A DNA stretch of 64,000 nt from Candidatus Doudnabacteria bacterium (lineage in GTDB: Bacteria > Patescibacteriota > Doudnabacteria > UBA920 > VMFF01): contig CAWIZL010000002.1 in the NCBI GenBank assembly GCA_963840645.1, forward strand, positions 209,663 to 273,662, written 5' to 3'. The translations under genes and the position numbers were made by a program. Within the stretch, counting starts at the first letter, position 1. Every line of letters starts with the position of its first letter. Under the pieces are notes generated by a model, which was not told where the DNA came from, did not search any database, and worked only from the letters and a program-made list of their open reading frames with translations. Positions 1,191 to 62,873 of this stretch are shown here, in pieces.

Positions 1191-1714
1191 GTAACATCAA
1201 ACGTATGAAAACAGACACAATTTTTGCGTGGGTTCTCGGCATTGTTCTGGTTGCAGTGTTCATTGTGCTCGCCGTTGCGCTGCACCAGCACGGTTCTAGC
1301 AGTGCTCAGCCTGCCAACGCAGGGCAAACAGGTGGAACTGCGCAACAGTCACCAACGAGCCAGCCAATTTCTTCGTTGTCAGACCCAAAGTTCCAGAGCG
1401 TCCTCACAGGAGTGCCAGGCACGTCGAGCTACGCAGCAATAGTGGCAGCACAGGGAGTGGCAACACCTGCCATTCACATCACGGACTGCAAACCGTACCC
1501 ACAGGTCTCTGCTGTGACGATTGGCCAGCCAGTGGAAATTTACAACACTGACAGCGTTGCCAGAACCCTGAAAGGGTCTACTGGCAGCAGCTTCAGCGTT
1601 ACCGTTCCGGCAAAGGGCAGCACGTCCTTCACGTTCCACGCTGCCAGCCAGCCAACTGCATTCAACTACACGTGCAACGGCACAGTAGCTGGCGCAATTG
1701 TAACCTCAAACTAG
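1187..1714 (+). CDS. Membrane-anchored hypothetical protein with a C-terminal two-cysteine beta-sandwich (cupredoxin-like) domain
   Basis: The ATG at 1187 overlaps the upstream stop (ATGA). MSNIKRMKTDTIFAWVLGIVLVAVFIVLAVAL is a signal-anchor TM. The C-terminus reads HITDCKPYPQVSAVTIGQPVEIYNTD...FNYTCNG. It is a paralogue of 33008..33481. Confidence 0.6.
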   Translation: MSNIKRMKTDTIFAWVLGIVLVAVFIVLAVALHQHGSSSAQPANAGQTGGTAQQSPTSQPISSLSDPKFQSVLTGVPGTSSYAAIVAAQGVATPAIHITDCKPYPQVSAVTIGQPVEIYNTDSVARTLKGSTGSSFSVTVPAKGSTSFTFHAASQPTAFNYTCNGTVAGAIVTSN

Positions 1715-2403
1715 TGTTGCCAGTCCGGGGCAGGTGCGAGGCTGGGCAGACGCTCATTGAGACAGTCGTTGCCATTGCCATGCTGACAACTGGGGTGATT
1801 GTTGCCATGAGCCTGGCAGTGTACTCGTCTAGCTCAGCTGGTGATTCAACCAACCAAATTGTTGGCACTGAGCTGGCTAGGCAGGGCCCGAGGGAGTGAG
1901 AAACATGCGTGATTCAAACTGGCTGAATGCCACCAACGATCCTCTCTCCACCTGCGCAGAGTACGGGTCAGGCCAGTGCTACCCAAACTGGCTCGGGTGG
2001 CTCGGTGACCCAAACAGCATCAGCGTTGGCAACTACGCAATGGACATGTTAACCTACGGCGCAAGCCCAACCTACAGCGCAGAGCTCGTGAACCCTGGCA
2101 CCCTGCTAAACGGCAACGGCTACCAGCTCTACTACAATGCTCCATCAGGCCAGTTCTCGGTGAACCAAATTTCACCTGGGGATACGCTGTCGGTTTACAG
2201 CCGTGAGGTTGGTGTTACAGAGCAAACAGGCTTTGTGCCAAGTCTCAACGCAACGTACTCTCCTGCAAACCCACTGGTCACCGTGACCTCAACAGTGTGG
2301 TGGTCAAACAGGCACTGCCCGGCAACGGCAAGCCCTGCTACGCTACCGGCAAGTTGCCAGGTTGCAGTTGAGCACGTACCTCACGAACTGGAGGAACTTT
2401 TAA
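1714..2403 (+). CDS. Type IV pilin-like (pseudopilin) protein, interrupted by two compensating frameshifts (ORF pieces 1672..1899 and 1896..2531)
   Basis: A GTG/TTG start at 1714/1717 gives MLPVRGRCEAG|QTLIETVVAIAMLTTGVIVAM, a prepilin-type N-terminal motif. The frame changes at about 1885-1897 (..ELARQG / PEGVRNMRDSNWL). It returns to the first frame at about 2370 and ends ..TYLTNWRNF-TAA at 2401-2403, directly abutting the next ATG. Confidence 0.6.
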
Positions 2404-3054
2404 ATGGAGAGCAAAAACAACTCAACCCGTGCGGCCAACAGCGGATTTACGCTCATCGAGATCATCGTGTCTACCGCGCTCTTCGTGGTTATCGTGAGTG
2501 CACTCGTGGGGCTGTACCTGCAGGCAATTGACCTCAGCAACAGGGCTGACACCACCCGCACCGCAGCGCAGAACGCACGCGATCTGAGCGAGTCTCTGGC
2601 AAAAGATGTTAGGAATGGAACCATTGACTTTGGGGACGAGGGTGCCGTGGAATCGCCGTGCAATGGTAGCCCATCGAGCCCAACGCCACAGGGTGAGGCG
2701 AGCCTCGGGGTGTTGACCGTTGACGGCGCCCACAACTGCCTCTACCTTGGCGATGCGGCCAGCGGGGGAGGCAACCCACCGTACGATCCGAACGGCAAGT
2801 ACCTGTACCTCATAAGAAATACAGAGCCAGCACAGCTCTTGAACTCACCGAATTTATCTATCAACAGCTTCAAGGTGTACATCTTGCCAACATCCGATCC
2901 AGCCAGTGGCAGCAACCAAGAAGAGCTGGTCTCAATCGTCGGCAGTGTCAGTGCAGTATCAGGATCTGCGAACAACACAGTGCCACAGGACACCGCCGTG
3001 ATTCCTCTCGATGTAACCATTTCAATACCAGACTATGGATACTCACCGCACTAG
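2404..3054 (+). CDS. Prepilin-type N-terminal cleavage/methylation domain protein (minor pilin, PilW/GspJ-like)
   Basis: MESKNNSTRAANSG|FTLIEIIVSTALFVVIVSALVGLYL is the canonical G|FTLIE class III signal. Confidence 0.8.
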   Translation: MESKNNSTRAANSGFTLIEIIVSTALFVVIVSALVGLYLQAIDLSNRADTTRTAAQNARDLSESLAKDVRNGTIDFGDEGAVESPCNGSPSSPTPQGEASLGVLTVDGAHNCLYLGDAASGGGNPPYDPNGKYLYLIRNTEPAQLLNSPNLSINSFKVYILPTSDPASGSNQEELVSIVGSVSAVSGSANNTVPQDTAVIPLDVTISIPDYGYSPH

Positions 3055-3774
3055 GCAGGAAGGCATAACCCTCTTGCTCACCATCCTGATCCTCGCTGCC
3101 CTGTCAACGATTATTTTTGGATTGGCTGCTGTCACGCTCCAAGAGGTTCGCACGTCCAGCGACACCACCATATCAGAGCGAGTTATTTCGTCGGATGAGG
3201 CAATGAACGAGTACTCAATGTACGCGCTCACCAGGGGCAGTGCGTACGGAAGCATTTCCAGCAACTGCGGGACGCCGACTGCCTTGACCCTAAACAGCGT
3301 GCAGGTGAGTGCGTGCGCAGCTGAGTACGACCCAAGCCCTTACTCGTTCACGGTTCCTGCGGCTGCAACCCAGCCATTTCTCCTCTTTAACCCGTCAGAT
3401 TGGTACGGCACGAGCTGCAGCATGAGCGGGACAAACTGTCCTGGGTACACCTCCGTCACCATTACCCAGAACAGTGGAAGCCCCACTGGCGTGTACCTTT
3501 GTAACTGGTCAACGACTGGTTGCGATCCAGCTACTGACTACGGCAGTACAACAGTGGCACCTGGAAGTCCGTGGATGAGCCGGCCCTGAGCGCAACGAGC
3601 CAGTACCAGCTTGTGGTCGACAACCCTACAGGTGCCGGGGTAAACTACGTAATGGCCACGACCACGTCCTCTTCGCCTGCTTACGGGTCACCATCTGATA
3701 CAACAGAGCTCACCGTGAGCGGTACGCTAGAGGGGATAACTAGAAAACTGCAGGGTACTGTTGGGCAGCCGTAG
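3035..3774 (+). CDS. PilX-like minor pilin, interrupted by one frameshift (ORF pieces 3035..3589 and 3571..3774)
   Basis: The N-terminus RTRQEGITLLLTILILAALSTIIFGLA is PilX_N-like. The reading continues in frame 1 from about 3570 (..APGS / VDEPALSATSQYQLVV...TLEGITRKLQGTV). Confidence 0.55.
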
Positions 3775-4318: not shown

Positions 4319-6336
<2,018 letters not shown>

Positions 6337-7541: not shown

Positions 7542-7582
<41 letters not shown>

Positions 7583-8264: not shown

Positions 8265-8301
<37 letters not shown>

Positions 8302-10604: not shown

Positions 10605-11203
10605 AGCGAAATTCCTTGTCGCGTAAGTTGCGACCCGCACGAATGGCATAACGAGTAGAGGACTGTCTTGACGAACAACCCGATGAATTTACAGTGGCGG
10701 TAAAGATGCCGTCTGCCCGCAACAAGACGGAAAGACCCTATGAAGCTTTACTATAGCGTGTCATTGGAATAAGGTTTTGGCTGTTTAGAATAGGTGGGAG
10801 ACTTTGAAGTGCTGCTCTGGCAGTAACTGAGTCGCAAGGTGAAATACCACCCTGTCGAAATTTTGTTTCTAACCTTGGTTTAACCTGCCAGGGAACAGTG
10901 GCTCGTGGGTAGTTTAACTGGGGCGGTTGCCTCCTAAATGGTAACGGAGGCGTTTATTAAGGTAGGCTAAACGCGGATGGAAATCGCGTTGATAGTGCAA
11001 ACGCATAAGCCTGCTTGACTGCAAGGCCAGCGAGCCGCGCAGGTACGAAAGTAGAAGTTAGTGATCCGATGCGTTAGAGTGGAATACGCAAAGCCCAACG
11101 GATAAAAGTTACTCTAGGGATAACAGGCTGATCCGTCTCCAAGAGTCCACATCGACGACCGGGTTTGGCACCTCGATGTCGGCTCATCACGTCCTGGGGG
11201 TGA

Positions 11204-11240: not shown

Positions 11241-11802
11241 TGGTACGCGAGCTGGGTTCAAAACGTCGTGAGACAGTTTGGTCCTTATCTGTTGTGGGTG
11301 TACGAAACTTGAGTGGGCACATCTCTAGTACGAGAGGACCAGATGTATGGACCTCTGGTGTACCCGTTGTCCTGTCAAGGGCATAGCGGGGTAGCTAGGC
11401 TCAGTTCAGATAAACGCTGAAGGCATATAAGCGTGAAGCTGTCCACAAAACTAGGTTTCGTTGTGCAGCGATGCACGATAGATTCGCAGAAGACTACTGC
11501 GCACATAGGTTGCAGGTGTAAGCACAGCAATGTGTTCAGCCGAGCAATACTAATCAATCGAAAGTTTTAATTCTTTTTGACTAGCAATTTGCGCTTGTAA
11601 TACAGCGTGATTGTTGGCCGAAGAATTTCTGGGCATACTAGAATACGTCTTTGTTGCATAACAATTTACATTGTTTTCGCCGAAAGGTGAGAACATGCCA
11701 CTATGGTTTGATACAATTCGAAGGTGAATGCCTTCTGAACTTTCAGAGAAACCGCATCCAAAATCCGAATAATTTTGGCTAGCGCACGTTTCCCTGCAGG
11801 TT

Positions 11803-16221: not shown

Positions 16222-17500
16222 AGAAGAAAGTCGCAAGGGCCAAAGCTAAAGGCAGAACGAGGGCAGCAAAAACGTTGCGGCCTAAGTTTAAGCACGCAAA
16301 AAAATCTGTCAAGCGAAGCGTAAAAGCGAAGTCCGCGAAATCCAAGAGCAGCGGTGCAAAGAAGGGTCGCTCAGCAACGCCTGGTGAGTTTGATGCGGCA
16401 ACGCGCAAGGCAGTTGACCACCTCGTGCTCAAGGGCGCAGAGCGCGGCTTTGTGACAGAGGCAGAAATTGTGCACGCGCTGCCTCGCTTTGAGGACAACG
16501 TGCAAGACCTCGAGCGTGTAATGGACGAGCTGGATAAACGCGGCATTGAGGTTGTTGACCCAGAGGTTGCCAGCATTTGGCAGACGCGCGAGACTCCGGC
16601 AGAAGGTGTCACAACTACAAAGGGCAAGAAGAAGAAAGAGGTGCCAGACAACAGCTACGACCTCGGCGATATTTACGATGACTCCATTCAAATGTACCTG
16701 CGCGAAATTGGCAAGGTGCCTTTGATTAACGGTTTGGAAGAAGTTGAGCTGGCAAAGCGCATTACGAAGGGCGACATTGCAGCGCGCAAGAAGCTCACGG
16801 AAGCCAATTTGAGGTTGGTTGTTTCGATTGCAAAAAAGTACATGGGCCGCAACCTGGCCTGCTCGATTTAATCCAAGAGGGGAACATTGGCCTGTTCCGC
16901 GCTGTAGACAAGTTTGACTGGCGCAAGGGCTACAAGTTTTCTACGTACGCAACGTGGTGGATTCGCCAGGCAATTACCCGCGCGCTCGCTGACCAGTCGC
17001 GCACCATCCGCATCCCAGTGCACATGGTTGAGACACTCAACAAGTACGCGCAGGCAGAGCGCCAGCTTGTGCAAGACTTAGGTCGCGAGCCGTTGCCAGA
17101 AGAGATTGCTGCGGAGATGGGCATTGAGGTCTCAAAGGTTTACCACCTGAAGAAAATTTCGCAGGAAACCGTGTCTATTGATTCGGCCGTTGGCGAGGAC
17201 GAGGGCGAGAACGAGTCAACGCTGGGCGACTTCATTGTTGACGATGACACCACGATGCCAGCAGATGCAGCTGGCCGTCAGATTCTGCGCGACTACGTAC
17301 AGGAGATTTTGGCTGACCTCGATCCACGCGAGCAGAAAATTTTGAAGATGCGCTTTGGCCTTGAAGACGGCGTGCAGCACACGCTGGAAGAAGTTGGCGA
17401 AGAGTTTGGCGTGACGCGCGAGCGCATTCGCCAGATTGAGGCAAAGGCAATTGAGCGGATTAAGGAGCATGCAAATATTTCTAAATTGAGAGACTACTAG
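16218..17500 (+). CDS. rpoD: RNA polymerase sigma factor RpoD (sigma-70), with one frameshift at about 16855-16862 (ORF pieces 16218..16871 and 17018..17500) and a Lys-rich basic N-terminus
   Basis: The ATGA start overlaps the dnaG stop. Contains [32 protein letters not shown] / [42 protein letters not shown]...RIPVHMVE, and region 4 [23 protein letters not shown]. Confidence 0.9.
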
Positions 17501-18694: not shown

Positions 18695-19609
18695 ATGGAA
18701 CCAATCAAGAAAATAGGCATTATGGGGCTTGGGAAAATGGGGAAGGGCATTGCTCTGAACCTCATTGACAACGGGTTTGAGGTGCACGCGTTCAACAGGA
18801 GCCCTGAGCCGCTCGCAGAGGTTGTGGCAGCTGGTGCAGTTAAGTCTGAATCGTTGGATGACATGGCTTCGCAGCTCGGCAGCCCACGCGTTGTCTGGTT
18901 TATGCTCACAGCTGGTGGCGTGCTCGATGATGTGCTGAAAACTTCTGGCCTGCTCGACAAGCTTCAGCCAGGCGACATCATCATTGACGGCGGCAACTCA
19001 AACTTCAATGACACTGTGAAGCGAGCAGCAATGTGCAAAGAGCGCGGCATCTTTTTCTTGGACGCTGGCGTGTCAGGTGGGCCTGAAGGTGCACGAAGCG
19101 GTGCAGCAATTATGGTTGGCGGCGAAAAAGAGGCGTACGACAAAGTCGCCCACATCTTCAAAGCCCTCAGCGTTGAGAATGGCTACGGCTACATGGGTGC
19201 CAGCAGGCTCTGGCCACTACGTGAAAATGGTGCACAATGCCATTGAGTACGGCATGCTGCAGGCAATGGGCGAAGGCTACGAGCTCGATCAAAGAGCGAG
19301 CCGTACAAAGACCTCGATTTACGCGAGGTCACAAAAGTTTGGCAGAATGGAACAGTGATCCGTGGCTTCCTCATGGACCTCATGGCTCGCGCGTACGAAA
19401 AGAATCCAACTCTCGAAGGCATCAAAGGGTACATTGAAGACAATGGCGAGGGCAAGTGGGCAGTGCAAACAGCGCTCGATGCAAACGTGCCGTTCGTGCT
19501 CAACACGTACGCCCTCATGTTCCGCTACATTACGCGACAGGACGAGAGCTTTGCAGCGCAGGTTGTGGCATCGCTGCGCCACGAGTTTGGCGGGCACGAG
19601 CTCAAGTAG
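18695..19609 (+). CDS. gnd: 6-phosphogluconate dehydrogenase, short (about 300 aa) decarboxylating type, with two compensating frameshifts (about 19201-19206 and 19287-19289)
   Basis: [23 protein letters not shown] (Rossmann fold), [15 protein letters not shown], then in a second frame [27 protein letters not shown], and back in the first frame [31 protein letters not shown]. Confidence 0.85.
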
Positions 19610-19627: not shown

Positions 19628-21158
19628 ATGCGGGTACCGATGAAACAGAAAGTATCTAAAATTCGAAAGGACGTAGTGCAGCCAACAATCTTCACGATCT
19701 TTGGCATCACTGGAGATTTGGCAAAGAAGTACCTGCTAGTATCGCTGTACAACTTGTGTGCAGCAGGCGAGCTGCCAGCACAGTTTTACCTGGTTGGCTA
19801 CGGCAGGCGAAAGTGGAGCGACGCTGAGATGAAGGCATTTGTGGTCAAGAGCCTGAAAGGTGCGCTGCCAAAATTTAATTCAAAAATTGCTGGCCGGCTT
19901 CTGAGAAATGCCTACTACGTTGTCGGCGATTTTGCTACGCCTGGTGACTACATCAATTTAAAGAAGTTTTTAGCAAAGCTCGAGCGCGATGCGGGTATGC
20001 ACCTGAACAAGATTTTCTACGTTGCCACAGCGCCGCTGTACTACCCAGAAATATTCAAGCAGCTCGGTTCGCACGGGTTGGCGCACTCCACAAAGCTCGA
20101 GCAGACGCGCATTCTAATAGAGAAGCCATTTGGCACTGATGCAAAGTCTGCTGCCTCCCTCAATAAAATTTTGCACGCGCACTTTACAGAAGAGCAAATT
20201 TTTCGCGTTGACCACTACCTGGGCAAGCTGCCAATCCAGAACATCCTGAGCTTCAGGTTTGGCAACGGCATCTTTGAGAAAATCTGGAACTCGCAGCACA
20301 TAGACAACATTCAGATTTCAGCTGTGATGGAAGACGTTGGCATTGAAGGCCGTGGCGCGTTCTACGATGAGACTGGTGCGCTCCTCGACGTCGTGCAGAA
20401 CCACATTATGCAGGTGGTCGCCCTCGTGTGCATGGATGCGCCATTCAACATGGATGCCGAGTGCGTCAGCGAGCGCAAAGCGCAGCTGCTAAAAAAAGTT
20501 CGCATCTCACAGGATGGACGTGACGTTGTGCGCGGCCAGTACAGTGGGTACACGCGTGAGCAGGACGTGCGCATGAACTCAAACACAGAGACGTTCGTTG
20601 CGCTGAAACTGTTCGTGGATACACCGGCGTTTCGTGGCGTGCCAATTTACATCCGCACTGGCAAGGCGCTCGACCGTCGGTTCACAGATGTTGTCGTGCA
20701 GTTCAAGCAGGACAGCGTCCACTTTTTAGGCAACAAGAAACACGGGATAGATCCTAATTTGCTGAGCATACGCGTGCAGCCAGAGGAGTCTATCTCGCTG
20801 CGCATCATGGTGCGCGAGCCTGGTTTTGAGACGCAGCTCAAGCCTGCGCAAATGGACTTCTGCTACCCGCCCAACGGCGAAGGTGCGTACAGTCCCAGCG
20901 CTTACGAGAAGGTAATTTACGATGCGCTGCACGGTGACCAGGTGTCGCTCGTGCGGTCTGACGTGCTCATGCAGCAGTGGCGCATCGTTGATGCGCTGCA
21001 GAAAAAGTGGCGCAGCTACCCGCTTGAAATTTATAAGCAGGGGAGCGAAGGTGCCTGCGAGCCAGCACAAAGTTTTAGAGCGCGACGGCACGCAGTGGTG
21101 GAGCGAGGCAATGCCGTACTGCCCTGCGCCACCGCAGAAACCAGCGAAGAAAAAGTAG
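19628..21158 (+). CDS. zwf: Glucose-6-phosphate dehydrogenase, with one frameshift near the 3' end (about 21049-21052; the true stop is at 21158, not 21196)
   Basis: FTIFGITGDLAKK, IFRVDHYLGK, DVVQNHIMQ. The C-terminus is restored as ..YKQGSEG / PASQHKVLERDGTQWW. Confidence 0.9.
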
Positions 21159-21160: not shown

Positions 21161-22826
21161 TTACTCCTTAACCATGTGGTCCAGCGACCACTGTAAATTC
21201 GATCCAACCTTTTTGCCTGGGTTGAAGATGTTGAGCGGGTCAAATGCAGCCTTCACCTCTTCGAACAGGCCGTAGACCTCTGCCCCGTACATTTGCTTGA
21301 GGAACGGGCTGCGGATGAGGCCGTCGTTGTGCTCGGCAGTTATAGATCCGTGGTAGGCGAGCACGAGGTCGTACACTTTGTTGGAGAGCTCTGTAATAAT
21401 TTCGCGCGTCTTTGGATTTTTGAAATCCATGAGCGGAATAATGTGGAAGTTGCCGTCGCCAACGTGACCTGCGATTGTGTACACAATATCGTACTGCGCA
21501 AGGATCTTATTCAAAGCTGGCAGGAACTCTGGCAGGTGCTCTGGCCGCACAATGATGTCATCAATGAAGGGAGCTGTGCGCGTGCCGTGCATGTGCTTGC
21601 GCAGCAGGCTGAAGCTCTCGCGCCTGATTGTCCAGTACTTCTGTGAATCTTTCTGGTCTGCAATGCGGGTTGGCAGCTTGAAGCGCGCAACAGCGTCTTT
21701 GGCAGCCTGTGTGCGTTTGGCAACCTCAGCAGCATCTTTGCCACGGAACTCTGCCATCAGGATGAGCTTCGGGAAGCCGCCAGTGAGCACCATGCCAACC
21801 TCTGGCAAGAACTGCAGGCCAAGGCTGAAGATGTTCGTTGGCGCCATTATCTTTATGATCTCTGGCAGAAACTTCATGGCCAGCGAAAGCGTCTTGTCAT
21901 CGTACGACTCAAAGCTCTCTGGCTTGAACTGCAGCACAACGTTTACCAGTTCTGCCAGGTGCGTGAGGTCATTTCATGAACACAATGAGCATCTGAGACT
22001 CATTGTCAGGTTCTATGAGCCGGAACTTTATGCGGTCAATAATGCCGAGCGTACCCTGCGACCCAACGAGCAGCTTGTTCATGTTGAACGTGCCAGCAGT
22101 GCGGTCGTACACGTTCCAGAGGTAGTAGCCAGCAGAGTTCTTTGAAACCCTTGGCTTTGCAGACTGAAGCACGTCGTAGTTTTTATCTATGATTCCGTAA
22201 ATTTTTCTGTACAGGTCGCCCTCAAAGCCTTCTTCTCTTAACTTGGTGTCGAGCTGGTTGCGGTCGAGCTGCGTGAAAGTGTGCTCTTTGCCGTCAGCCA
22301 GAACCATTTTCAATTCCTCCACGTAGTTTTCGATCTTCCCGTACGTAAGAGTTTTTTCGCCAGCGCCATTGTTGGCCACTTGGCCGCCAACGGCGCAGAT
22401 CTCGCGCGAAGCTGGGTACGGCGGCAGCAGCAGATTTTTTGCCAAGGTGAGCTTCTCAAAGTCGCGGTAGAAAACGCCTGGTTCAACAACGCCGTAGCCA
22501 ACGCTGGGGTCAGTGTTCTTTACCTCGAGTATGTGGTTGAAGTACTTCAGGAAGTCTAAGATGATGGACGTGTTGAGCGATCCGCCGCTCATGCACGTGC
22601 CAGCTGCACGGGCAGTAATAGAAATGGTGGGGTCAGTTTTCTTGGCTTCGCTCACGAACTGCACAATTTTTTCTATGTCAGCAACTGTCTTCGGGCTGAC
22701 AATGACCTCTGGCTTTATCTCAAACACGCTCGCATCGTGGCTGTAAGTGGTGAGCGTTGCATCATCGAACGTAATGTCGCCGTCGAGGTGCAGGGCTTGG
22801 AGCTTCTCAATTGTTGGTGTTGGCAT
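21161..22826 (-). CDS. FAD-linked oxidase (GlcD/D-lactate dehydrogenase-like, PCMH FAD-binding domain), with one frameshift at about 21970 (ORF pieces 21969..22826 and 21161..21937)
   Basis: The N-terminus VSPKTVADIEKIVQFVSE...ITARAAGTCMSGGS matches FAD_binding_4. The C-terminus reads GHVGDGNFHIIP...GSITAEHNDGLIR. The junction reads ..MLIVFMK / DLTHLAELVNVVLQFKPESF. Confidence 0.85.
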
Positions 22827-38642: not shown

Positions 38643-39312
38643 TTAGCCCTGCAGCTCCAGCGGGTGCTGCTTGAGCAGCTGCCCGTAGTACGCCAAGTTT
38701 CTCGCTAAATTTTTTGCCATGTGCTGGGTTGCCTTGCTCTTGAGGCGCGCCGCACGCTCTAGCGCGGTCGGCTTTCCAACCTCTCCAACCCAGTACGCAC
38801 AGCACTCTGGCGGCAAGGTGAAGTTCATGAACGTCAGCACCTCCATGATAGAGCCGAGCGTTGCCTGAGCGCCGTCTTCGCTGCCCGTTATTACAATGCC
38901 AGCCACTTTATTGAGGAGCGCACTCCTGCCATTGGCAATGTACTCTTCGTCGAGTGCATCCATGCGCTCAATGACCCGCTGCATGAGGCTGGAGCGTCCA
39001 CCCCACCAAATTGGCGTTGCAAAGATGACCACGTCAGCGGCCTTGAGCTTCACCACAATTCCCGGCCACTCATCGTTTGCGCCCTCTTTGAACCCAAGCC
39101 CAACCGGGATCTCTTTATCTGCAAGGCGAATTTCTTCACTGGCAACTTTGCAGTATTCCCCCATGTTCTTCACGACGAGCTCAGCGAGCTTCTCCCGTAT
39201 TCGAGATACTCTTGCCACGCCTGTGCTTCAGAGATGCGTTGAGGATGAGCACGTTGAGTTTCTGGTTCTTATTCGGCACGGCGCAATTTTGTACTGGCTT
39301 TGTTTTGTACAT
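38643..39312 (-). CDS. Flavodoxin-like fold NAD(P)H-dependent FMN reductase family protein, with one frameshift at about 39200
   Basis: The N-terminal piece MYKTKPV..KLNVLILNASLKH is in another frame (ATG at 39312). It continues ..VVIFATPIWWGGRSSLMQRVIERMD...AGIVITGSEDG. Confidence 0.7.
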
Positions 39313-40669: not shown

Positions 40670-42452
40670 ATGCCTAGCAGCAACGAGAATTCGACCGATA
40701 GCAGCATAGAACCAGCCCAAGAGACAGGCTTCATGAAGTGGGTGCCACTGCTGGTAATCAGTCTTGCGCTGACTATCATCATCCTGGACACCACAATTCT
40801 GAACGTGACCCTGCGCACGATCATCCTTGATCTGCACACGAACATCCAGAGCATCCAGTGGGTGATTACAGGGTACTCGCTCATCATTGCCGCATTCACC
40901 ATCACGGGCGGCAGAATGGGCGACCTCTTTGGCCGCAAGAAAATGTTCGTGCTGGGTGCAATTATTTTTGCGGTCGGCTCGTTCATGACCTCAATTGCGC
41001 ACAGCGTGAGCTTCATGATAGCTGGCGAGGCAGTCATTGAAGGCCTTGGTGCGTGTCTCATGCTGCCAGCTACGCAGTCGCTGCTCCGCTCAAGCTACAA
41101 AGGGCGTGACCTTCAGGTGGCGTTCGGCATTTGGGGTGGCATCATTGCAGGTGCTGCTGCAGCTGGGCCGCTCATTGGCGGCTGGTTCACGTCGCACTAC
41201 TCGTGGCGCTGGGCGTTCCGCGTGAACGTTGTCGTCGCGGCAATTTTGGTGGTCTCGTCCATTGCCATCAAAGAGTACCGCGACCTATCTGAGAAAACAG
41301 ACGTAGACTTTGTTGGTGTCATTCTTTCAGCTCTCTCAATGACATCCATTGTGTTTGGCTTTGTGCAGACGTCTACGTACGGCTGGTGGAAGGCTCTCGC
41401 ACCTCTCAACGTTCTGCACCACGCCATTCACTTTGGCGGACTTTCGGCATCTCCGATTTTCGTAGCAGCTGGCTTGCTCATTGGCTGGGCATTCATTGCG
41501 TGGGAAGCTCACGTTGAAAAAATCGGCAAGACGCCACTCGCATCCGTGGCACTCTTCAAGAGCTCAGGCTTTGTGGTTGGCTCCAGCATTTCTTCAATTC
41601 AGGCATTGGGCATGGCTGGCCTGACATTTGCCATTCCAATTTACCTCCAGGCAGTGCTCAAGCTCACGCCAATTCAAACTGGGCTCGCGCTCGTGCCAAT
41701 GACCCTGCCAATTTTAATCTCTGCCCCGCTGTCTTCGTGGATCAGCAAGTACATTACGCCAAAGGTCATCATTCAGATTGGCATAGTGTTGAACATCATT
41801 GGATTCATTGTGCTGCGCCAGAGCCTGCACGTTGGCGTGAACCAGTGGGCAATGGCTCCTGGCTTAATCTTGTTCGGGGCTCGGACTTGGGTTGATTTTT
41901 GCCCAGGCAACAAACCTCACGCTCTCTGCTGTGCCCGTTGACCAAGCTGGTGAAGCTGCTGGTGTTTCCAGCACGCTCCGCTCGCTCGGGCAGACGCTCG
42001 GTGCGGCAATTTTGGGCGCTGTGCTCATCTCAGCGCTGGGATCAAACTTGGTCTCAGGCGTGAACGCGAGCGCGGCAATTCCACAGGCAAGCAAGCCAGC
42101 CGTCGTGCAGGTTGTGTCTAGCCAGACTTCAAATATAGAGTTTGGCAGTGGGCGAGCTTTGCCGGAACTGGAATTTCGCCGAGCACTGCTAGCGCCATTA
42201 CCACAATTGGCAATGCTGCCACTGTGACCGCAACGCGCGAATCGTTCGCCTACGGTGCACTGTTCATGCTGCTGGGCTTAATTGTTTCTTTTGCACTGCC
42301 ATCAGGAGCTGAAGAAACAGTGACACCAGAAGCAAGTGTTGCACCAGTGGCTGCAGCTGCAATGGAAGGACCAGCAGTTTTTGCTGCAGATGTTTCTGCA
42401 AAGGAACCTGATCCTGTGCCAGTGCCAAAGCAGAGCTCCGAAGCCAGAGCCT
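40670..42452 (+). CDS. Second MFS transporter of the DHA2 family, with frameshifts at about 41876-41879 and 42150; the 3' end is unresolved and it is possibly fused to the next ORF
   Basis: LDTTILNVTLRTI, GGRMGDLFGRKKMFVLG, then GLGLIFAQATNLTLSAVPVDQAGEAAGVSSTLRSLGQTLG in a second frame and AITTIGNAATVTATRESFAYGALFMLLGLIVSFALP in a third. Confidence 0.75.
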
Positions 42453-43148
42453 ATGGTGAAATCGCCCGTAGAGCAAAAACCTACGTCAGTAATTGTCACG
42501 CACGAAGAAAACGATGGAAAGGCAATTGGAGCTGGCGTCTTTGCACTCGTGCTGCTCGCCGCTGGCACGCTCGTTGGGTTTCTGTTGGGCAGGCACACTG
42601 CGCCAACGGCAACTGTTGTGGCGCCAAACTACCAGATCACAGTGCCTCCGCAGCCAACGGTAGCTCTACCAACGCCAACACCTCAGGTGCTCGGCATAAC
42701 TGTTGGAAACCCACAGCCAACCCCGATACAACCGACTCCAACGCAGCCACCAGCGCCAACGCAGGTGCAGCCTGTTGCACTTCTTGATTCTCAAACGTTC
42801 AGTGATCCAGCTGAGCAGTTCACCTTCCAGGTGCCCTCTGACTGGAAAGCGTCGAACGTGGACGGCGAAGATGTTTTCGTGACGCCGCAAGGCCAGCGCG
42901 CCAGCGTGCAGATGTACCAGGTTGGCAACAACGACTTCGTGGCACTCGGAAGCTTCTTGAGCAACCAGCCAAACCTCCACGACGTTGTGCAGTCAACGTT
43001 TGCCGGCAGACCTGCGTACGCATTCAACGTTGACGGCATTTACGTGCACGGCTACGCGTTCTTGGATAGCGGAAGGCTGTACTACGTGCTCGGCGCAGGC
43101 GTCGAGAGTTCGCCTCTCGCGGCAACTTTCCAGACCACGCAGAACTAA
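42453..43148 (+). CDS. Membrane-anchored extracytoplasmic protein; either a separate gene from ATG 42453 or the C-terminal extension of the MFS gene
   Basis: MVKSPVEQKPTSV.., TM segment AIGAGVFALVLLAAGTLVGFLLG, a PT/PQ linker, then a roughly 120-aa domain FTFQVPSDWKASNVDGEDVFVTP...YYVLGAG. Confidence 0.55.
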   Translation: MVKSPVEQKPTSVIVTHEENDGKAIGAGVFALVLLAAGTLVGFLLGRHTAPTATVVAPNYQITVPPQPTVALPTPTPQVLGITVGNPQPTPIQPTPTQPPAPTQVQPVALLDSQTFSDPAEQFTFQVPSDWKASNVDGEDVFVTPQGQRASVQMYQVGNNDFVALGSFLSNQPNLHDVVQSTFAGRPAYAFNVDGIYVHGYAFLDSGRLYYVLGAGVESSPLAATFQTTQN

Positions 43149-46002: not shown

Positions 46003-47120
46003 TTACCGCACAGACCTGTAACCGCCAGGCACACCTTTTTTGGACAGCGTGAACTGCCAGAGCTGGTTTCTCCTCGCGCGGAACGCTCCGGCGCACGAGA
46101 GCAGGTAGTAGCTCCACATTCTGTAGAACCTATCGCCGTACTCTGCCTTCAGGCTCGGCCAGTTGTCGACAAAGTTTTTGTGCCACGCCATGAGGGTCTT
46201 GTCGTAGTCTGCTCCAAAGTTGTGCAGGTCTTCGAGGATGAACAATTTTTCCATTGGGCCACGAGCTGCGCGAGCGCTGGGAGAACGCCGTTGGGAAAGA
46301 TGTACTTGTCTGTCCACGGGTCTGGCACTGGCAAGGACTTGTGGTACCCAATGGTGTGCAGCAGGAACATGCCGTCATTGGTGAGCCTGTCGTGGGCCAC
46401 CTTGAACAGCGAAGCGTAGTTCTTAGGCCCACGTGCTCAGCGAGGCCAATTGAAACAACGCGGTCAAACGTACCCTCAGCGTCGCGGTAGTCGCGAACCT
46501 GGAAGTCGAGCGGCAGGCCAGCGCACGATTCTTTGGCAAACTTCATCTGCTCTTTTGAAAGGTTCACGCCAACGCCGGTGACCCCGTACTTTTCAGCTGC
46601 GTACTTCAAGAAGCTCCCAAAGCCGCAGCCAAGGTCTAAAACTTTCATGCCAGGCTTGAGGCCAACCTTCCTGCAGACTAAGTCAAACTTTGCATCTTCA
46701 GCATCGTCTAAGTTCTGGGCGTCTCTCCAGTACGCGCACGTGTACGACATTGTGTGGCCGAGCATGAGCGCGTACAGGTTGTTGCCAATGTCGTAGTGCT
46801 TCTCTGCAACCTCTGCTGCCTTCGACTTCTTCTGGCCATTGAAGATTTGAGCCTTCAAGAAGTGAACGGCGAGTTTCCAGTCTTTCAGCTCGTTCTCTAA
46901 GTTGGCCTTCAGAACCCTGTTGAAGAACTCATCCAGCTCTGCGCAGTCCCACCACCCGTCCATGTACGATTCGCCCAAGCCTAGGTACGGCTGTCTCAGG
47001 ATGCGGGCGTAGAGCTTCTTCATTGTGTACCTGTATGTCCCACGGCGCGGTTCCGTTAATGGTGATACCAGCTTTTGCCGCTAAGCTGACCACCAGCTCT
47101 TTGTCTTTTTTCATTGCCAA
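46003..47120 (-). CDS. Cyclopropane-fatty-acyl-phospholipid synthase family SAM-dependent methyltransferase (BfaB/Cfa-like), with three frameshifts (about 47015, 46430, 46260)
   Basis: Pieces 46929..47120, 46130..47023, 46149..46400 and 46003..46317 join as ..APWDIQVHNEE/LYARILRQPYLGLGESYMDGWWDC...HYDIGNNLY...VLDLGCGFGSF...SIGLAEHVG/..HDRLTNDGMFLLHTIG...DPWTDKYIFPNG/..LEDLHNFGADYDKTLMAWHKNF...YYLLSCAGAFRAR. Confidence 0.8.
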
Positions 47121-48522: not shown

Positions 48523-49011
48523 CTACCGCGCGGCTGCCAGAAACGTGTCGAGCTTCGTGAGCTGCTGCTCAAAGCCGTACTTCATGCCCTCTACTGCCAT
48601 TTTAGCCCCTGGCCCAATCTTGCTGACTGTGGCCTTGAGGTTCAGCTTTGTTTTGCCGCCTTCTTCTGTGAGGACGAGCTCTGTCACCTGGTCAATCTGG
48701 GTTGCCCCATCATCGTTCTGCCCCTCAGTCCAAGCCTTTGCGGTGTACGAGAGCTTTGAGTTTGGCTCAACAACTGTGAACTCTGCCTGCATTGGCCACT
48801 TCGTGCCCTTGTACGGCCCATTGCCTCGCCAGCTTCCATGACAATGTAGAACTTGCCGCCAACGCGCAGGTCAACTTCGCACTCAGGAATGGTTACGTCG
48901 TTTGGCACCCCACCACTGCTTGAGCACTTCTGGGTCTGTCCACGCTTTCCAAATTGTTGCTGCTGGTGCATCGTACGTTCTCTCGAACGTCACTTCTTTG
49001 ACTGGTTCCAT
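48523..49011 (-). CDS. SRPBCC/AHSA1 (activator of Hsp90 ATPase-like, START-fold) family protein, with two frameshifts
   Basis: MEPVKEVTFERTYDAPAATIWKAWTDPEVLKQWWG / PNDVTIPECEVDLRVGGKFYIVMEAGEAMG / PYKGTKWPMQAEFTVVEPNSKLSYT... The start abuts the ArsR stop. Confidence 0.7.
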
Positions 49012-49623: not shown

Positions 49624-50174
49624 ATGAACATTAGATTTCAGTCGAAGAGGGACGACACGTCGAGGTACGCCAGCCAGAAGCACGTGATCCCGTTTACCAA
49701 AAAGCAGGCGATTGTCCTTGCTGCTGGGTTGCTGTGCATTCTAGCCATTGGCATCCTGGCTGCAAAACCTGTGGCAGAATTTTTGAACTATCGGTACGGC
49801 ATCGGCAACAAGGCAGCTATACAGAAGGTCGAGATTGAAGACCTCAAAGATATTCATGACACCGTTGGTCGTGATTCGTACACCGTGCACTTCGTGTACA
49901 ACGGAATCATCAGCCGAGACAGGAACGATAAGCCGCCGGACGATTTCAAAGAGCCGTACATGTGGGTGACGTTCACGTACCGTGTTGACGATGGGGGAAT
50001 TAAGGCAGTCACTGAACAGCTCCAGCAGTTGAAAGGCGTTGAGCCGAACGGCGTTAACGTGAAGACGTTCAGTGTCTCCATCCGCAAAGCCGACGAGATG
50101 AAGTGGATCGCGGTATGGCAAGAGGTCAGGATGTGCTCAATGCCTACATGCTCAGCCACCCACATCCAAACTAA
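49624..50174 (+). CDS. Membrane-anchored hypothetical protein; probable frameshift at about 50125 (true stop about 50174, not 50331)
   Basis: TM segment AIVLAAGLLCILAIGILAA. The ORF-track version runs through a terminator (AGCCCA..TGGGCT followed by a T-run at about 50206-50240) into the convergent gene. The alternative frame ends ..GQDVLNAYMLSHPHPN-TAA. Confidence 0.5.
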
Positions 50175-55213: not shown

Positions 55214-55223
55214 TTTAGTCCTT

Positions 55224-55721: not shown

Positions 55722-55814
55722 TGTACCACGTATGGATAAAAAAGTCTAACGCTGCAAAATTGTTTAAACGGAGGATTTGTGCCACAATTGAGACAATTAA
55801 TAACCCCCAACCAA

Positions 55815-56711: not shown

Positions 56712-56772
56712 GTTTTAAGCGAAAACTTTCAAGCGAGCAAACAGTGAATACCCCAAAGAGGCGGTAGCTTTT

Positions 56773-57726: not shown

Positions 57727-57896
57727 TGAGTGGCAGTCGGTACTAAACACGAAACGATACATCTACCCCTAGATGTATCGTTTCGAGCTTCTAAACGTGA
57801 CATCTTTCGTTGAGGCGCATTGCAATTTGCATTTAATAGCAAAATGCCTTAGTATTATGACTGGAAGTAACCTTTAAAGTCATTTCCAGTAACAAT

Positions 57897-58493: not shown

Positions 58494-58498
58494 AAATC

Positions 58499-59197: not shown

Positions 59198-59243
59198 CTC
59201 TAATAAAACACAAAGCACCACCTTTGAGGTGATGCGTTCTGTT

Positions 59244-59318
<75 letters not shown>

Positions 59319-61071: not shown

Positions 61072-61096
61072 TGTAAGTACCAGCTAACAAAACTAC

Positions 61097-62008
61097 ATGG
61101 CGAAACAAAAACAGCAAATTGAGGTTCCGGGCGATGTGCCAAAAGAGGCGCAGGCTCTCTACGAGAAAAACTACCTTGCCGTGACGCACGGCGTTGGCCG
61201 CATGATGCTGTTTGCGGGCGACCAAAAAGTGGAGCACATGAACGATGACTTCATTGACGTTGAGCACCTGTTCAAAATAGCAGCAGCTGCAAAAATTTCT
61301 TGCTTTGCATCAGAGCTTGGCACGATTGCGCGCTACGGCAGGTCGTACCCAAACGTGCCGTACCTCATTAAGATGAACTCAAAGAGCAATGCAGTGCCAA
61401 CCTCAGAGGCAGACCCGGTGAGCCTTGCGTGGTTTGACGTTGACGACGTTGTGGCATTCAAAGAGTCGAGCGGCCTGAACGTCGTGGGCATTGGCTACAC
61501 AGTGTACGTTGGCAGCCTGCACGAGAACGAAATGCTGCGCGAGGTGGCGAACTTAATTTTCCAGGCGCACAGGCACGGACTGGTTGCGTGCGTGTGGATG
61601 TACCCGCAGGGCGAGGCAGTTAAAGACGAAACAGATCCGCACACCATTGCAGGTGCCACGAGCATTGCGTGCTGCCTCGGCGCAGACTTCGTGAAGGTGA
61701 AGTTTCCAAAGCTGAAGGGTGCTGCTGCGCAGACGCCGGAGGATCGTGCAAAATCTTTTGCCGAAGCTGTGGCTGCAGCTGGTCCGCGCACGAAGGTCAT
61801 TTGCTCTGGTGGCGAGAAAATGGCACCAGAAGCTTTCCTGCAGCAGCTGTGGGATCAAATTCACATCAGCGGTTGCGCTGGCAATGCGACAGGCCGCAAC
61901 ATCCACGAGCGCCCGTTCGACGAAGCTGTGCGGTTCGCGGACGCCGTGTACGCTCTTACCATTGACGATGCTTCGGTCGCAGGTGCGCTTAAAATTCTTC
62001 ACGGCTAA
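61097..62008 (+). CDS. Class I aldolase of the DhnA/FbaB (DeoC/LacD-superfamily) type, probable fructose-bisphosphate aldolase
   Basis: LFAGDQKVEH, LIKMNSKSN, GYTVYVGS, GADFVKVKFP (candidate Schiff-base Lys region). A TGCTATAAT promoter element is at 61064-61072. Confidence 0.75.
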   Translation: MAKQKQQIEVPGDVPKEAQALYEKNYLAVTHGVGRMMLFAGDQKVEHMNDDFIDVEHLFKIAAAAKISCFASELGTIARYGRSYPNVPYLIKMNSKSNAVPTSEADPVSLAWFDVDDVVAFKESSGLNVVGIGYTVYVGSLHENEMLREVANLIFQAHRHGLVACVWMYPQGEAVKDETDPHTIAGATSIACCLGADFVKVKFPKLKGAAAQTPEDRAKSFAEAVAAAGPRTKVICSGGEKMAPEAFLQQLWDQIHISGCAGNATGRNIHERPFDEAVRFADAVYALTIDDASVAGALKILHG

Positions 62009-62873
62009 TGGCCGATCGTCCAAAAACTAAAATTCTTTTAGACAGCGGCGACCCAGCCGAGACAGCTCGCGCTCGCGAGCTGCTCGGGTTTTTAGACGGG
62101 CAGACAACAAACCCATCGCTCGTTGCGAAAGACCCAGAGATTGTGGCGCTCGTTGCATCTGGCCAAAAGCTCACCGCTGCAGCGCAAACAGTAGAGTACA
62201 AAAAAATTGTCGGGGAAATTTCGCCCCTGGTTGGCGGTGCCGGCGTATCTATAGAGGTGTACGCTGACATGGGTTCAAAGGCTGACGATTTGTACGCCCA
62301 AGGCCGTGAAATGTTCTCGTGGATTCCAAATGCGTACGTGAAGTACCCGTGCCTGCCAGCTGGGTTTGAGGCAGCCCAGAAGTCTGTTGCCGATGGCACG
62401 CGCGTGAACATGACCCTGTGCTTTTCTGAAGCACAGGCTGCTGCTGTGTACGCTGCCACCGTTGGCAGCAAATCGCCAGTCTATGTTTCGCCGTTCGTTG
62501 GCCGCCTCGATGACATTGGCTTGAACGGCATGGGCAGCTCATCAAGAATATTTTGGAGATGTACAAAGGCGGCGATGGGCACGTCAAAGTTTTGGTTGCC
62601 AGCGTGCGCAGCCTAGACCACTTAATGTGCTCGTTTGCGCTGGGCGCTGATTTGGCCACAGTGCCACTGAAAATTTTAGAGGAGTGGGCGAGCGCTGGCA
62701 TGCCACTGCCAGGCGCCGGTTACGTTTACGGTGGCGCTGCGAGCCTTGCGCCAATTGCGCACGAGCAGCTCGATTTAACCCAGCCGTGGACGAGCTTCAA
62801 CATCCACCACGACCTGACAGACAAGGGGATTGCGAAGTTTGTAGAAGACTATAGGAAAACAGTTCAGGGCTAG
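62008..62873 (+). CDS. tal: Transaldolase family protein, with one frameshift at about 62530 (ORF pieces 62008..62616 and 62553..62873)
   Basis: ILLDSGDPAE, GQTTNPSL, YVKYPC, NMTLCFS, YVSPFVGRLDDIGLNGM / LIKNILEMYKGGDGHVKVLVASVRS. Confidence 0.85.

What the first reader, a model, noticed from the sequence alone, without database searches (positions are those of the whole stretch)
1714..62873. At least about 24 single-nucleotide frameshifts, including in essential genes; most likely assembly indels
Many genes match well-known families only if the frame is changed by 1 nt. The essential genes affected are ligA (about 5717-5720, a G-run; ..[31 protein letters not shown]) and rpoD (about 16855-16862; ..[42 protein letters not shown]). 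Central-metabolism genes are also hit: gnd twice (about 19203 and 19288), zwf (about 21050) and tal (about 62530). So are the FAD oxidase (about 21970) and the AlkD-like gene twice (about 26553 and 26152). Transporters are affected: MFS-1 twice (about 36600 and 36750) and MFS-2 two or three times (about 41877, 42150 and possibly 42440). The remaining cases are the flavodoxin-like gene (about 39200), the cfa-like gene three times (about 47015, 46430, 46260), the SRPBCC gene twice, the hypothetical gene at about 50125, and two of the three pilin-like genes. Both insertions and deletions occur, and several are not in homopolymers. Two genes show compensating pairs, so the frame leaves and returns: the pilin gene 1714-2403 over about 480 nt, and gnd over about 85 nt. 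Indispensable single-copy genes are hit and I see no slippery heptamers or stimulatory structures. Uncorrected indel errors, typical of a long-read or low-coverage assembly, are therefore the economical explanation. Genuine decay or transcript-level correction cannot be excluded from sequence alone. In practice, ORF-track boundaries in this window are unreliable and automated annotation will over-call pseudogenes and split genes.
Basis: partly seen in the sequence, partly recalled or inferred. Interest (0 to 1): 0.6.

Follow-up and report, generated by a model that had tools for sequence, protein, structure and literature searches.

The report
Sequencing-error frameshifts in a draft genome
About two dozen one-base frameshifts break essential and housekeeping genes in this stretch of an uncultured Patescibacteria (Candidatus Doudnabacteria-like) genome; they are almost certainly sequencing or assembly errors clustered at GGCC sites and short G/C runs, so this is a quality problem for annotation, not new biology.

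Summary
Nineteen single-base frame breaks in 12 genes (ligA, rpoD, gnd x2, zwf, FAD oxidase, AlkD x2, MFS-1 x2, FMN reductase, MFS-2 x2, cfa x3, SRPBCC x2, tal) are supported by homology. Pfam coordinates abut across fragments. One-base edits restore full-length ORFs and single continuous domain matches. Related Doudnabacteria genomes carry uninterrupted orthologues. Four more sites (two pilin-like genes, one hypothetical) have weaker support, and one (MFS-2 tail) is unresolved.

- Sequence on both sides of each break is equally conserved.
- Insertions and deletions are balanced, 12 each.
- The 23S rRNA carries two uncompensated lesions at about the same density, one in the sarcin-ricin stem.
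- The breaks cluster at GGCC or GGGCC and at short G/C runs, not A/T runs.
- An independent k-mer assembly of run ERR11571140, which holds the same organism, is fragmented. Five of its 12 mapped contig ends fall on frameshift sites, so the reads disagree there.

This fits error-prone, probably modification-sensitive, long-read consensus. No slippery site lies at a break and no break is shared with relatives, so recoding or real decay is very unlikely. Interest is low, apart from the annotation warning.

The parts
1880..1896 (+). pilin-like gene 1714-2403, first break (apparent 1-nt deletion) in GCAGGGCCCGAGG
   Evidence: The stop-bounded interval is only 19 nt (1881-1899) and contains GGGCCC. 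The N_methyl motif lies in the upstream frame. Coding potential switches frame here.
2357..2370 (+). pilin-like gene 1714-2403, second break (apparent 1-nt insertion) that returns the frame so the gene ends at 2403
   Evidence: A Logan contig starts at 2365. The edited ORF ends ...STYLTNWRNF* directly before the next gene's ATG at 2404. Weak support: no homologue was tested.
3574..3589 (+). pilin-like gene 3035-3774, break (deletion) at GAGCCGGCCCTGA
   Evidence: Two blastx HSPs in different frames match one L001 ORF at residues 5-73 and 90-151. A Logan contig ends at 3580.
5711..5726 (+). ligA (4319-6336), 1-nt deletion in GACGGGCCATC
   Evidence: HSPs to L001 LigA end at residue 596 and resume at 598 in another frame. 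The Pfam domains are split between the fragments. The edited ORF is 672 aa, as in the sister genome.
16850..16865 (+). rpoD (16218-17500), 1-nt deletion: CTGG^CCTG where relatives have TTGGGG or CTTGGT
   Evidence: DNA alignments to L081 and L083. Sigma70_r2 is split at profile position 22/23. The 120 closest listed homologues (409-455 aa, one of 382) all carry the five sigma-70 domains in one protein.
19191..19206 (+). gnd (18695-19609), first break: an extra base in ATGGG[T]GCC; the sister has ATGGGGCC
   Evidence: DNA alignment to L083. A Logan contig ends at 19196, inside the motif. Pfam coordinates.
19284..19305 (+). gnd, second break (1-nt deletion) that restores the frame about 90 nt later
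   Evidence: Three-frame reading and L083 alignment. The exact base is ambiguous: AAA to AAAA, or GCCG to GCCCG. The edited ORF is 304 aa against 298 aa in the sister.
21046..21061 (+). zwf (19628-21158), extra base in GAAGGT[G]CCTGC; the true C-terminus is ...GPASQHKVLERDGTQWW...
   Evidence: tblastn with the sister Zwf gives residues 1-468 in one frame and 459-491 in the next. After the edit, G6PD_C covers 2-296/296, against 2-286 before.
21965..21979 (-). FAD-linked oxidase (21161-22826), extra base in ATGAAATGACC
   Evidence: HSPs to the L083, L001 and L002 proteins abut at residue 285 (L083), 280/281 (L001) and 265/266 (L002). The edited ORF is 554 aa, the same length as the sister protein.
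26563..26576 (-). AlkD-like gene (26025-26714), first break: 1-nt deletion at CAGAG^TGC
   Evidence: tblastn gives residues 3-49 and 52-227 in different frames. A Logan contig starts at 26570. Pfam coordinates are 2-39 | 47-184.
26145..26158 (-). AlkD-like gene, second break: GGGG where the sister has GGG
   Evidence: DNA alignment. Pfam coordinates are 47-184 | 182-213. After the edits, one match covers 2-213/213.
36596..36609 (+). MFS-1 (36296-37785), first break: extra base in GCTC[C]ATG
   Evidence: Pfam MFS_1 coordinates are 2-82 | 88-145. Context.
36750..36783 (+). MFS-1, second break: net +1, probably three indels around two GGCC sites (TTTGGCCGCTCATCGGCTGGCCTGCTTGATAGAC)
   Evidence: PLIG is readable only in the third frame. 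The three-edit version restores GPLIGG and scores 194.1 bits against 184.8 bits.
39188..39201 (-). FMN-reductase/flavodoxin-like gene (38643-39312), extra G in ACGGGAG
   Evidence: FMN_red starts at profile position 8 in the fragment and at position 2 after the edit.
41871..41884 (+). MFS-2 (from 40670), first break: GGGG for GGG
   Evidence: Frame reading gives LILFG|LGLGLIFAQ. MFS_1 covers 2-306 in the first fragment.
42146..42157 (+). MFS-2, second break: GGG for GGGG
   Evidence: Frame reading gives EFGSG|ASFAGTGIS. Coding potential returns to the first frame.
42390..42460 (+). MFS-2 tail, possible third break (unresolved)
   Evidence: The open frame runs on to 42784 through sequence with no coding signal and overlaps the next gene, which starts near 42452. 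No homology support.
47009..47024 (-). cfa-like gene (46003-47120), first break: extra base in GAAGAAGCTC
   Evidence: Frame reading gives WDIQVHNEE|LYARILRQ. The edited protein is a single ORF.
46420..46435 (-). cfa-like gene, second break: C missing from GTGGGCC^TAAG (EHVG|PKNY)
   Evidence: CMAS coordinates are 2-143 | 141-208. Context.
46250..46265 (-). cfa-like gene, third break: base missing in GTGGCCCAATGG
   Evidence: CMAS coordinates are 141-208 | 208-273. After the edits, one match covers 2-273/273 at 273.8 bits.
48899..48914 (-). SRPBCC/AHSA1 gene (48523-48990), first break: extra base in GGGG[T]GCC
   Evidence: Frame reading gives KQWWG|PNDVTIPECE. After the edits, AHSA1 covers 1-124/125 at 86 bits, against 34-124 at 39 bits before.
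48808..48823 (-). SRPBCC/AHSA1 gene, second break: C missing from ATGGGCC^GTAC
50112..50125 (+). hypothetical gene 49624-50170, probable 1-nt deletion at TATGGC^AAG
   Evidence: Coding potential ends near 50101. A Logan contig ends at 50117. The edit gives a stop at 50170, clear of the convergent gene that ends at 50235. No homologue was tested.
62528..62541 (+). tal (62008-62873), 1-nt deletion in ATGGGC^AGC
   Evidence: TAL_FSA coordinates are 1-167 | 184-281. After the edit, one match covers 1-281/285 at 130 bits.
11327..11346 (+). 23S rRNA sarcin-ricin element: the G that closes the stem after AGTACGAGAGGACC is missing
   Evidence: The Rfam alignment shows a deletion and an unpaired partner. 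Sister L083 has identical flanks plus the G, and L001, L003 and L006 also keep a complete stem.
11133..11140 (+). 23S rRNA domain V helix: CCGTCTC where the sister has CCGGTC; the 3' partner GACCGG is unchanged
   Evidence: The Rfam alignment shows an insertion with non-canonical pairs. Comparison with L083 and L001.

Best explanation
The frame breaks are consensus errors in the deposited assembly, not features of the organism's DNA. The window comes from a 407,690-bp contig of an uncultured Candidatus Doudnabacteria-like bacterium. It was most likely assembled from error-prone long reads at modest coverage without accurate-read polishing.

At certain contexts the reads disagree on length, and the consensus picked the wrong length at roughly one position in 2 kb. 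These contexts are GGCC, especially GGGCC/GGCCC, where a C or G is dropped or a T or G is inserted to give GGTGCC. Short G runs are also affected.

Shown:
- The breaks are single-base.
- The genes are otherwise intact and conserved.
- The rRNA is hit at a similar density.
- The sites share a sequence context.
- A k-mer assembly of a run holding the same organism breaks at the sites.

Inferred:
- The platform is probably nanopore.
- The GGCC bias may reflect cytosine methylation at GGCC that disturbs basecalling.
For: 1. Single-base edits restore every tested gene to a full-length ORF with one continuous Pfam match.

2. Orthologues in L001, L002, L081 and the syntenic sister L083 are uninterrupted: ligA 672, rpoD 433-434, gnd 298, zwf 499, FAD oxidase 554 and AlkD 232 aa. 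The 120 closest rpoD homologues all carry the five sigma-70 domains in one protein; 119 are 409-455 aa and one is 382 aa.

3. There is no decay after the breaks. FAD oxidase is 80.2% and 80.4% identical on the two sides. The rpoD C-terminal part is 95.5% identical at 83% nucleotide identity.

4. The process ignores function. Essential genes are hit. Deletions and insertions are 12 and 12. The 23S rRNA carries two uncompensated lesions in about 3.6 kb, one in the sarcin-ricin stem, while the sister has identical flanks.

5. Context bias: GGCC lies in 8 of 23 site contexts against 1.4 expected. GGGCC/GGCCC lies in 6 against 0.3. GGTGCC lies in 3 against 0.3. G/C runs lie in 13 against 6.3. A/T runs are depleted, 5 against 9.5. 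The sister shows GGGGCC where the window has GGGTGCC.

6. Exact intact proteins of the window occur in the Logan assembly of run ERR11571140, but on contigs of only 1.1-4.4 kb. Five of 12 contig ends fall on frameshift sites: 19196, 26570, 50117, 2365 and 3580. No contig spans a site. The truncated products are recorded only on the 407,690-bp contig.

7. Nanopore consensus errors are known to concentrate in 5-methylcytosine motifs and homopolymers, and to fragment gene calls in bins below about 40-fold coverage (PMC6591954; PMC9262707).
Against: - The reads and the platform metadata of ERR11571140 could not be inspected.
- The DNA of its Logan contigs was not available, so read-level disagreement is inferred from where contigs end.
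- Two of the five coinciding contexts (hypothetical gene, pilin second site) were refined after I saw the contig ends. Three are independent.
- About 40% of the sites lie in no GGCC or G-run context.
- Only some 4-6% of GGCC sites are affected, so the motif effect is partial.
- No DNA methyltransferase gene is present in the window.
- GGCC is only moderately under-represented (observed/expected 0.69).
Confidence: 0.93

Rival explanations
1. Genuine pseudogenisation: the lineage is decaying and these genes are truly inactivated.
For: The breaks are present in the deposited sequence. Patescibacteria have reduced genomes and many are thought to depend on hosts (general knowledge).
Against: - The hits include the dnaG-linked primary sigma factor, the NAD-dependent ligase and the 23S sarcin-ricin stem.
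- Each gene carries only the frame break or breaks, with no extra stops.
- Conservation is equal on both sides of the breaks.
- All relatives are intact.
- The sites share a sequence context typical of technical error.
Confidence: 0.03
2. The consensus mixes co-assembled strains, so the breaks reflect real population heterogeneity at these positions, including non-functional alleles.
For: The k-mer contigs of ERR11571140 break at the sites, which means at least two sequence versions, or no solid k-mers, exist there.
Against: Real strain differences within coding sequence are mostly substitutions or whole-codon indels. One-base length variants in rpoD, ligA and rRNA stems would be lethal alleles. 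The GGCC and G-run context points to a measurement effect.
Confidence: 0.03
3. The breaks are real and are bypassed by programmed ribosomal frameshifting, transcriptional slippage or RNA-level correction.
For: Both +1 and -1 breaks sit in genes that must be expressed. A shared GGCC-type context could in principle be a recognition signal.
Against: - No in-phase slippery heptamer lies at any shift point.
- The A AAA AAG stretches near rpoD and AlkD lie outside the mapped junctions. The rpoD stretch is also present in a relative (L081) that needs no shift.
- No long A/T tract is present, and A/T runs are depleted at the sites.
- None of the breaks is conserved in relatives.
- The rRNA lesions cannot be rescued by translation.
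- Some genes would need two or three events in both directions.
Confidence: 0.01

Closest known systems
Nanopore consensus errors at methylation motifs and homopolymers (Wick et al. 2019, PMC6591954)
   Same: Residual consensus errors concentrate in a short cytosine-methylation-type motif and in homopolymers. They survive polishing and are independent of gene function. Here GGCC/GGGCC and G runs take that role.
   Different: The motif there is Dcm CCWGG in Enterobacteriaceae, and the platform and methylation were known. Here the platform and any GGCC methylation are inferred. Only a few per cent of GGCC sites are affected.
Frameshift-fragmented genes in long-read metagenome-assembled genomes (Sereika et al. 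2022, PMC9262707)
   Same: Indels in the consensus cause truncated or split gene calls, particularly in bins below about 40-fold coverage without short-read polishing.
   Different: That work attributes most errors to long homopolymers. Here the runs are short (2-4 bases) and G/C-specific.
Programmed ribosomal frameshifting (dnaX -1, prfB +1)
   Same: An essential protein is encoded in two overlapping frames.
   Different: Those sites have a defined slippery sequence, stimulatory elements and conservation across relatives (general knowledge). None of these is found here.
Transcriptional slippage at poly(A) tracts rescuing frameshifted genes in insect endosymbionts
   Same: Many frameshifted genes in a small genome can still be expressed.
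   Different: That rescue needs long A/T homopolymers (general knowledge). Here A/T runs are depleted at the sites and the genome is 53% G+C.

Membership tests
Long-read consensus indel artefact | Single-base indels that interrupt otherwise intact, conserved ORFs; one-base edits restore full length | tested here: met
Long-read consensus indel artefact | Blind to function: essential genes and structural RNA are hit at a similar density, in both directions | tested here: met
   rpoD and ligA are broken. The 23S rRNA has two uncompensated lesions in about 3.6 kb, against about 24 breaks in roughly 50 kb of coding sequence. Insertions and deletions are 12 and 12.
Long-read consensus indel artefact | Enrichment in homopolymers or a specific short motif | tested here: met
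   GGCC in 8 of 23 contexts against 1.4 expected. GGGCC/GGCCC in 6 of 23 against 0.3. G/C runs in 13 of 23 against 6.3. The contexts were placed by hand, which is a caveat.
Long-read consensus indel artefact | Reads disagree at the sites | tested here: inconclusive
   The evidence is indirect. Logan k-mer contigs of ERR11571140 end at 5 of the sites and none spans a site. The reads themselves were not available.
Long-read consensus indel artefact | The breaks disappear after polishing with accurate reads | not testable with these tools
   There was no access to reads.
Programmed ribosomal frameshift | Slippery sequence in phase at the shift point | tested here: not met
   Contexts. The A AAA AAG stretches near rpoD and AlkD lie outside the junctions mapped with relatives.
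Programmed ribosomal frameshift | The frameshift is conserved in orthologues | tested here: not met
   L001, L002, L081 and L083 have single ORFs. The 120 rpoD homologues all carry the five sigma-70 domains in one protein.
Programmed ribosomal frameshift | Downstream stimulatory RNA structure | not tested
   Not examined, because the two features above already failed.
Pseudogene / genome decay | Relaxed constraint after the lesion (extra stops, lower conservation downstream) | tested here: not met
   FAD oxidase is 80.2% and 80.4% identical on the two sides. The rpoD C-terminal part is 95.5% identical. The corrected frames contain no extra stops.
Transcriptional slippage rescue | Long A/T homopolymer at the lesion | tested here: not met
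   A/T runs of 3 or more lie in 5 of 23 contexts against 9.5 expected. No long tract is seen.

The most novel reading that the evidence does not exclude
The frameshifts are truly in the DNA of this Patescibacteria lineage, and expression is rescued by an unknown site-specific correction at GGCC-type contexts. The correction could be RNA-level insertion or deletion, or context-dependent ribosome shifting in both directions.

A milder and much more likely by-product reading is that the error pattern exposes GGCC cytosine methylation in this uncultured lineage.
Probability: 0.01. Interest if true: 0.9.

Novelty: not a real feature. Interest (0 to 1): 0.1.

Why it matters
The value is practical. 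Gene calls in this contig, and probably in the whole genome bin, over-count pseudogenes and split genes. ligA, rpoD, gnd, zwf, tal and others should not be scored as absent or broken in metabolic or essential-gene analyses of this candidate-phylum bacterium.

The error contexts (GGCC/GGGCC and short G runs) give a concrete target for re-polishing. They also give a testable hint that the organism methylates GGCC.

If the breaks were real they would imply unprecedented recoding, but the evidence is strongly against that.

Tried and rejected
- **Exact look-ups of truncated products.** The rpoD, ligA, tal and other fragments were found only on the 407,690-bp contig, so there is no independent copy of the broken alleles.
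- **Exact look-ups that returned nothing.** DnaG and the ArsR-like protein gave no record in the contig index.
- **Search for another copy of this species' rpoD.** The closest hit is 84% identical, so no second assembly of the same species exists in the collection.
- **Logan contig DNA for ERR11571140.** It was not retrievable because the file is too large, so only gene tables and contig spans could be used.
- **Stop-codon-bounded intervals as an objective site definition.** Most were too wide (100-300 nt) to test motif enrichment, and the search mis-set two of them. Hand-placed contexts of 12-34 nt were used instead, with that caveat.
- **Literature searches.** Searches for the run accession and for the sister sample label found nothing relevant.
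- **Search for a DNA methyltransferase in the window.** None was found. The only methyltransferase hit belongs to an rRNA-type family. The sister genome does carry a C5 methylase.
- **tRNA-Ser as another possible error site.** It is 90 nt with a normal cloverleaf, as in relatives.
- **Region 52-56 kb as further frameshift candidates.** The ORFs there are separate intact genes.

Full report
**Source of the window**

The DnaG protein of the window finds its closest relatives (54-56% identity) in Candidatus Doudnabacteria metagenome-assembled genomes, within the Patescibacteria or candidate phyla radiation. Exact protein look-ups show that the window belongs to a single NCBI/ENA contig of 407,690 bp. 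The window also carries a 23S rRNA gene not preceded by a 16S gene, a 5S gene and two tRNA genes.

**Checking the observation**

A codon-usage frame track, built without any homology, shows the same same-strand frame switches.

I scanned each stop-to-stop fragment on its own against Pfam. The profile coordinates of successive fragments abut:

| Gene | Pfam family | Profile coordinates across fragments |
|---|---|---|
| rpoD | Sigma70_r2 | resumes at 23 of 71 |
| gnd | NAD_binding_2 / 6PGD | 1-153, then 1-31, then 164 onward |
| AlkD-like | DNA_alkylation | 2-39, 47-184, 182-213 of 213 |
| MFS-1 | MFS_1 | 2-82, 88-145, 144-346 of 347 |
| cfa-like | CMAS | 2-143, 141-208, 208-273 of 273 |
| tal | TAL_FSA | 1-167, 184-281 of 285 |

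For ligA and the FAD oxidase, HSPs to intact orthologues are adjacent and non-overlapping but lie in different frames.

Defined single-base edits turn each gene into one ORF of the expected length. Each edited protein gives one continuous, higher-scoring domain match: DNA_alkylation 2-213/213, CMAS 2-273/273, TAL_FSA 1-281/285, AHSA1 1-124/125, G6PD_C 2-296/296 and MFS_1 2-346/347.

I count 19 breaks supported by homology in 12 genes. Four more have weaker support: two in pilin gene 1714-2403, one in pilin gene 3035-3774, and one in the hypothetical gene near 50117. The MFS-2 tail near 42440 is unresolved. The MFS-1 site at 36750-36783 is probably three indels within 30 nt. Only the three-edit version restores the GPLIGG motif, and it scores 9 bits more.

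**Comparison with relatives**

Four related loci carry uninterrupted orthologues.
- L001 and L002 are Doudnabacteria MAGs.
- L081 is a Logan contig about 84% identical in nucleotides, with a 434-aa RpoD.
- L083 is a syntenic sister scaffold that runs from ligA to dsbB. It encodes LigA 672 aa, RpoD 433, Gnd 298, Zwf 499, FAD oxidase 554 and AlkD 232.

tblastn and DNA alignment against L083 map the window's lesions to single bases:
- GGG[T]GCC against GGGGCC in gnd.
- GGT[G]CC in zwf.
- AAA[T]GAC in the oxidase.
- CAGAG^TGC and GGG[G] in AlkD.
- CTGG^CCTG in rpoD.

The 120 closest RpoD homologues in the large protein collection all carry the five sigma-70 domains in one protein; 119 are 409-455 aa and one is 382 aa. 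The best is 84% identical, so no second assembly of this species exists there.

**Error or biology**

Several independent lines agree that these are errors.

- **No decay after the breaks.** The two halves of the FAD oxidase are 80.2% and 80.4% identical to the sister protein. The rpoD part downstream of the break is 95.5% identical at 83% nucleotide identity. The corrected frames contain no extra stops.
- **The process ignores function.** The dnaG-linked primary sigma factor and the NAD-dependent ligase are hit. Apparent insertions and deletions are 12 each.
- **The 23S rRNA is hit too.** It carries two lesions that break conserved helices with no compensating change. The G closing the sarcin-ricin stem is missing after AGTACGAGAGGACC, while the sister has identical flanks plus the G. 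CCGGTC has also become CCGTCTC, while its partner GACCGG is unchanged. Two lesions in about 3.6 kb of rRNA match the density of about 24 in roughly 50 kb of coding sequence.
- **The sites share a context**. GGCC lies in 8 of 23 hand-placed site contexts against 1.4 expected. GGGCC/GGCCC lies in 6 against 0.3, GGTGCC in 3 against 0.3, and G/C runs in 13 against 6.3. A/T runs are depleted, 5 against 9.5. At GGCC the typical event is loss of a C or G. In three genes a T or G is inserted to give GGTGCC where Gly-Pro is expected.
- **An independent k-mer assembly breaks at the sites.** Intact proteins of the window are found, letter for letter, in the Logan assembly of run ERR11571140, but on contigs of only 1.1-4.4 kb. 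In window coordinates those contigs span 11829-13986, 17369-19196, 26570-27805, 35462-36580, 50117-54562 and 2365-3580. Five of the 12 ends fall on frameshift sites, and no contig crosses a site. The nominal chance probability is about 2e-8. Two of the five contexts were refined after I saw the ends, so three coincidences are fully independent. A de Bruijn contig stops where the reads offer alternative sequences or none that repeat. It would run straight through a fixed clonal sequence, whether broken or intact.

**Mechanism**

The most economical account is consensus error from noisy, signal-based long reads at modest coverage without accurate-read polishing. Published work supports this. Nanopore consensus errors concentrate in 5-methylcytosine motifs and homopolymers and partly survive polishing (PMC6591954). 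Such indels fragment gene calls, particularly in bins below about 40-fold coverage (PMC9262707).

The G/C-specific, GGCC-centred pattern suggests a modification effect. GGCC and CCGG are the two most under-represented 4-base palindromes in the window, with observed/expected ratios of 0.69 and 0.62. GGCC is also low in the relatives. The sister genome carries a C5 cytosine methylase next to an HNH nuclease.

This step remains inference. No methyltransferase lies in the window. Only a few per cent of GGCC sites are affected, and the platform of the run is unknown to me.

**Rival explanations**

- **Real pseudogenisation.** It fails on the essential targets, the equal conservation on both sides, the rRNA lesions and the technical-looking context.
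- **Strain-mixture consensus.** It could explain the contig breaks. However, it would require lethal one-base alleles to be common in the population.
- **Programmed frameshifting or slippage.** It fails for four reasons. No in-phase slippery heptamer sits at a mapped junction; the A AAA AAG stretches near rpoD and AlkD lie outside the junctions, and the rpoD stretch also occurs in a relative (L081) that needs no shift. No break is conserved in relatives. Some genes would need two or three shifts in both directions. Translation cannot repair an rRNA.

**Verdict**

The feature is an assembly artefact of a known kind. Its scientific interest is low. It does have practical consequences for annotating this contig, and it offers a testable hint about GGCC methylation.

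Noticed in passing
window 6924-11574 (intron about 9540-10605; ORF 9716-10249): The 23S rRNA gene spans 4.65 kb and is not preceded by a 16S gene; ligA ends at 6336 just upstream. It holds an insertion of about 1,065 nt with a group I intron (Rfam hit 10301-10549) and a LAGLIDADG homing-endonuclease ORF. Sisters L001 and L083 lack this insertion.
   Followed up: partly
window 54971-59250, next to tRNA-Asn 59244-59318; L082 1409-4387: This block (DUF3750 protein, AbiEi/AbiEii toxin-antitoxin pair) is 84-87% identical in nucleotides to a JGI metagenome contig. The other genes on that contig (P450, AMP-binding enzymes, thiolase) do not look like Patescibacteria. The block may be a mobile island or a recent transfer at a tRNA gene.
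   Followed up: partly
L083 6433-7997; window 13762-14398; L081 2405-3869: The slot between the MJ0043_C-like gene and tRNA-Ser/dnaG is variable. The sister genome carries a C5 cytosine DNA methylase plus an HNH nuclease there. L081 has a Bro-N protein, and the window has only small ORFs.
   Followed up: no
window 18695-21158 and 60355-62873: An oxidative pentose-phosphate set is present in this small-genome lineage: gnd, zwf, 6-phosphogluconolactonase (60355-61071), a DeoC/LacD-family aldolase (61097-62008) and tal.
   Followed up: no
whole window; L001, L002, L081: CCGG and GGCC are the most under-represented 4-base palindromes in the window (observed/expected 0.62 and 0.69). GGCC is also low in the relatives (0.56-0.70). 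This is compatible with restriction-modification pressure.
   Followed up: partly
window 3-130: The window opens inside a long Thr-Pro repeat (TPTPTP...) of a large secreted or surface protein with a DUF11 domain. It lies upstream of the pilin-like gene cluster.
   Followed up: no
window 36577-36580: A Logan contig of ERR11571140 ends on a GGGG run 20 nt upstream of the first MFS-1 break. This hints that the reads also disagree at positions where the deposited consensus is in frame.
   Followed up: no
L083 2650-2725: ARAGORN calls a tRNA-Phe inside the variable insertion of the sister's 23S rRNA region. The window has nothing comparable at the equivalent place, 9006-9356.
   Followed up: no
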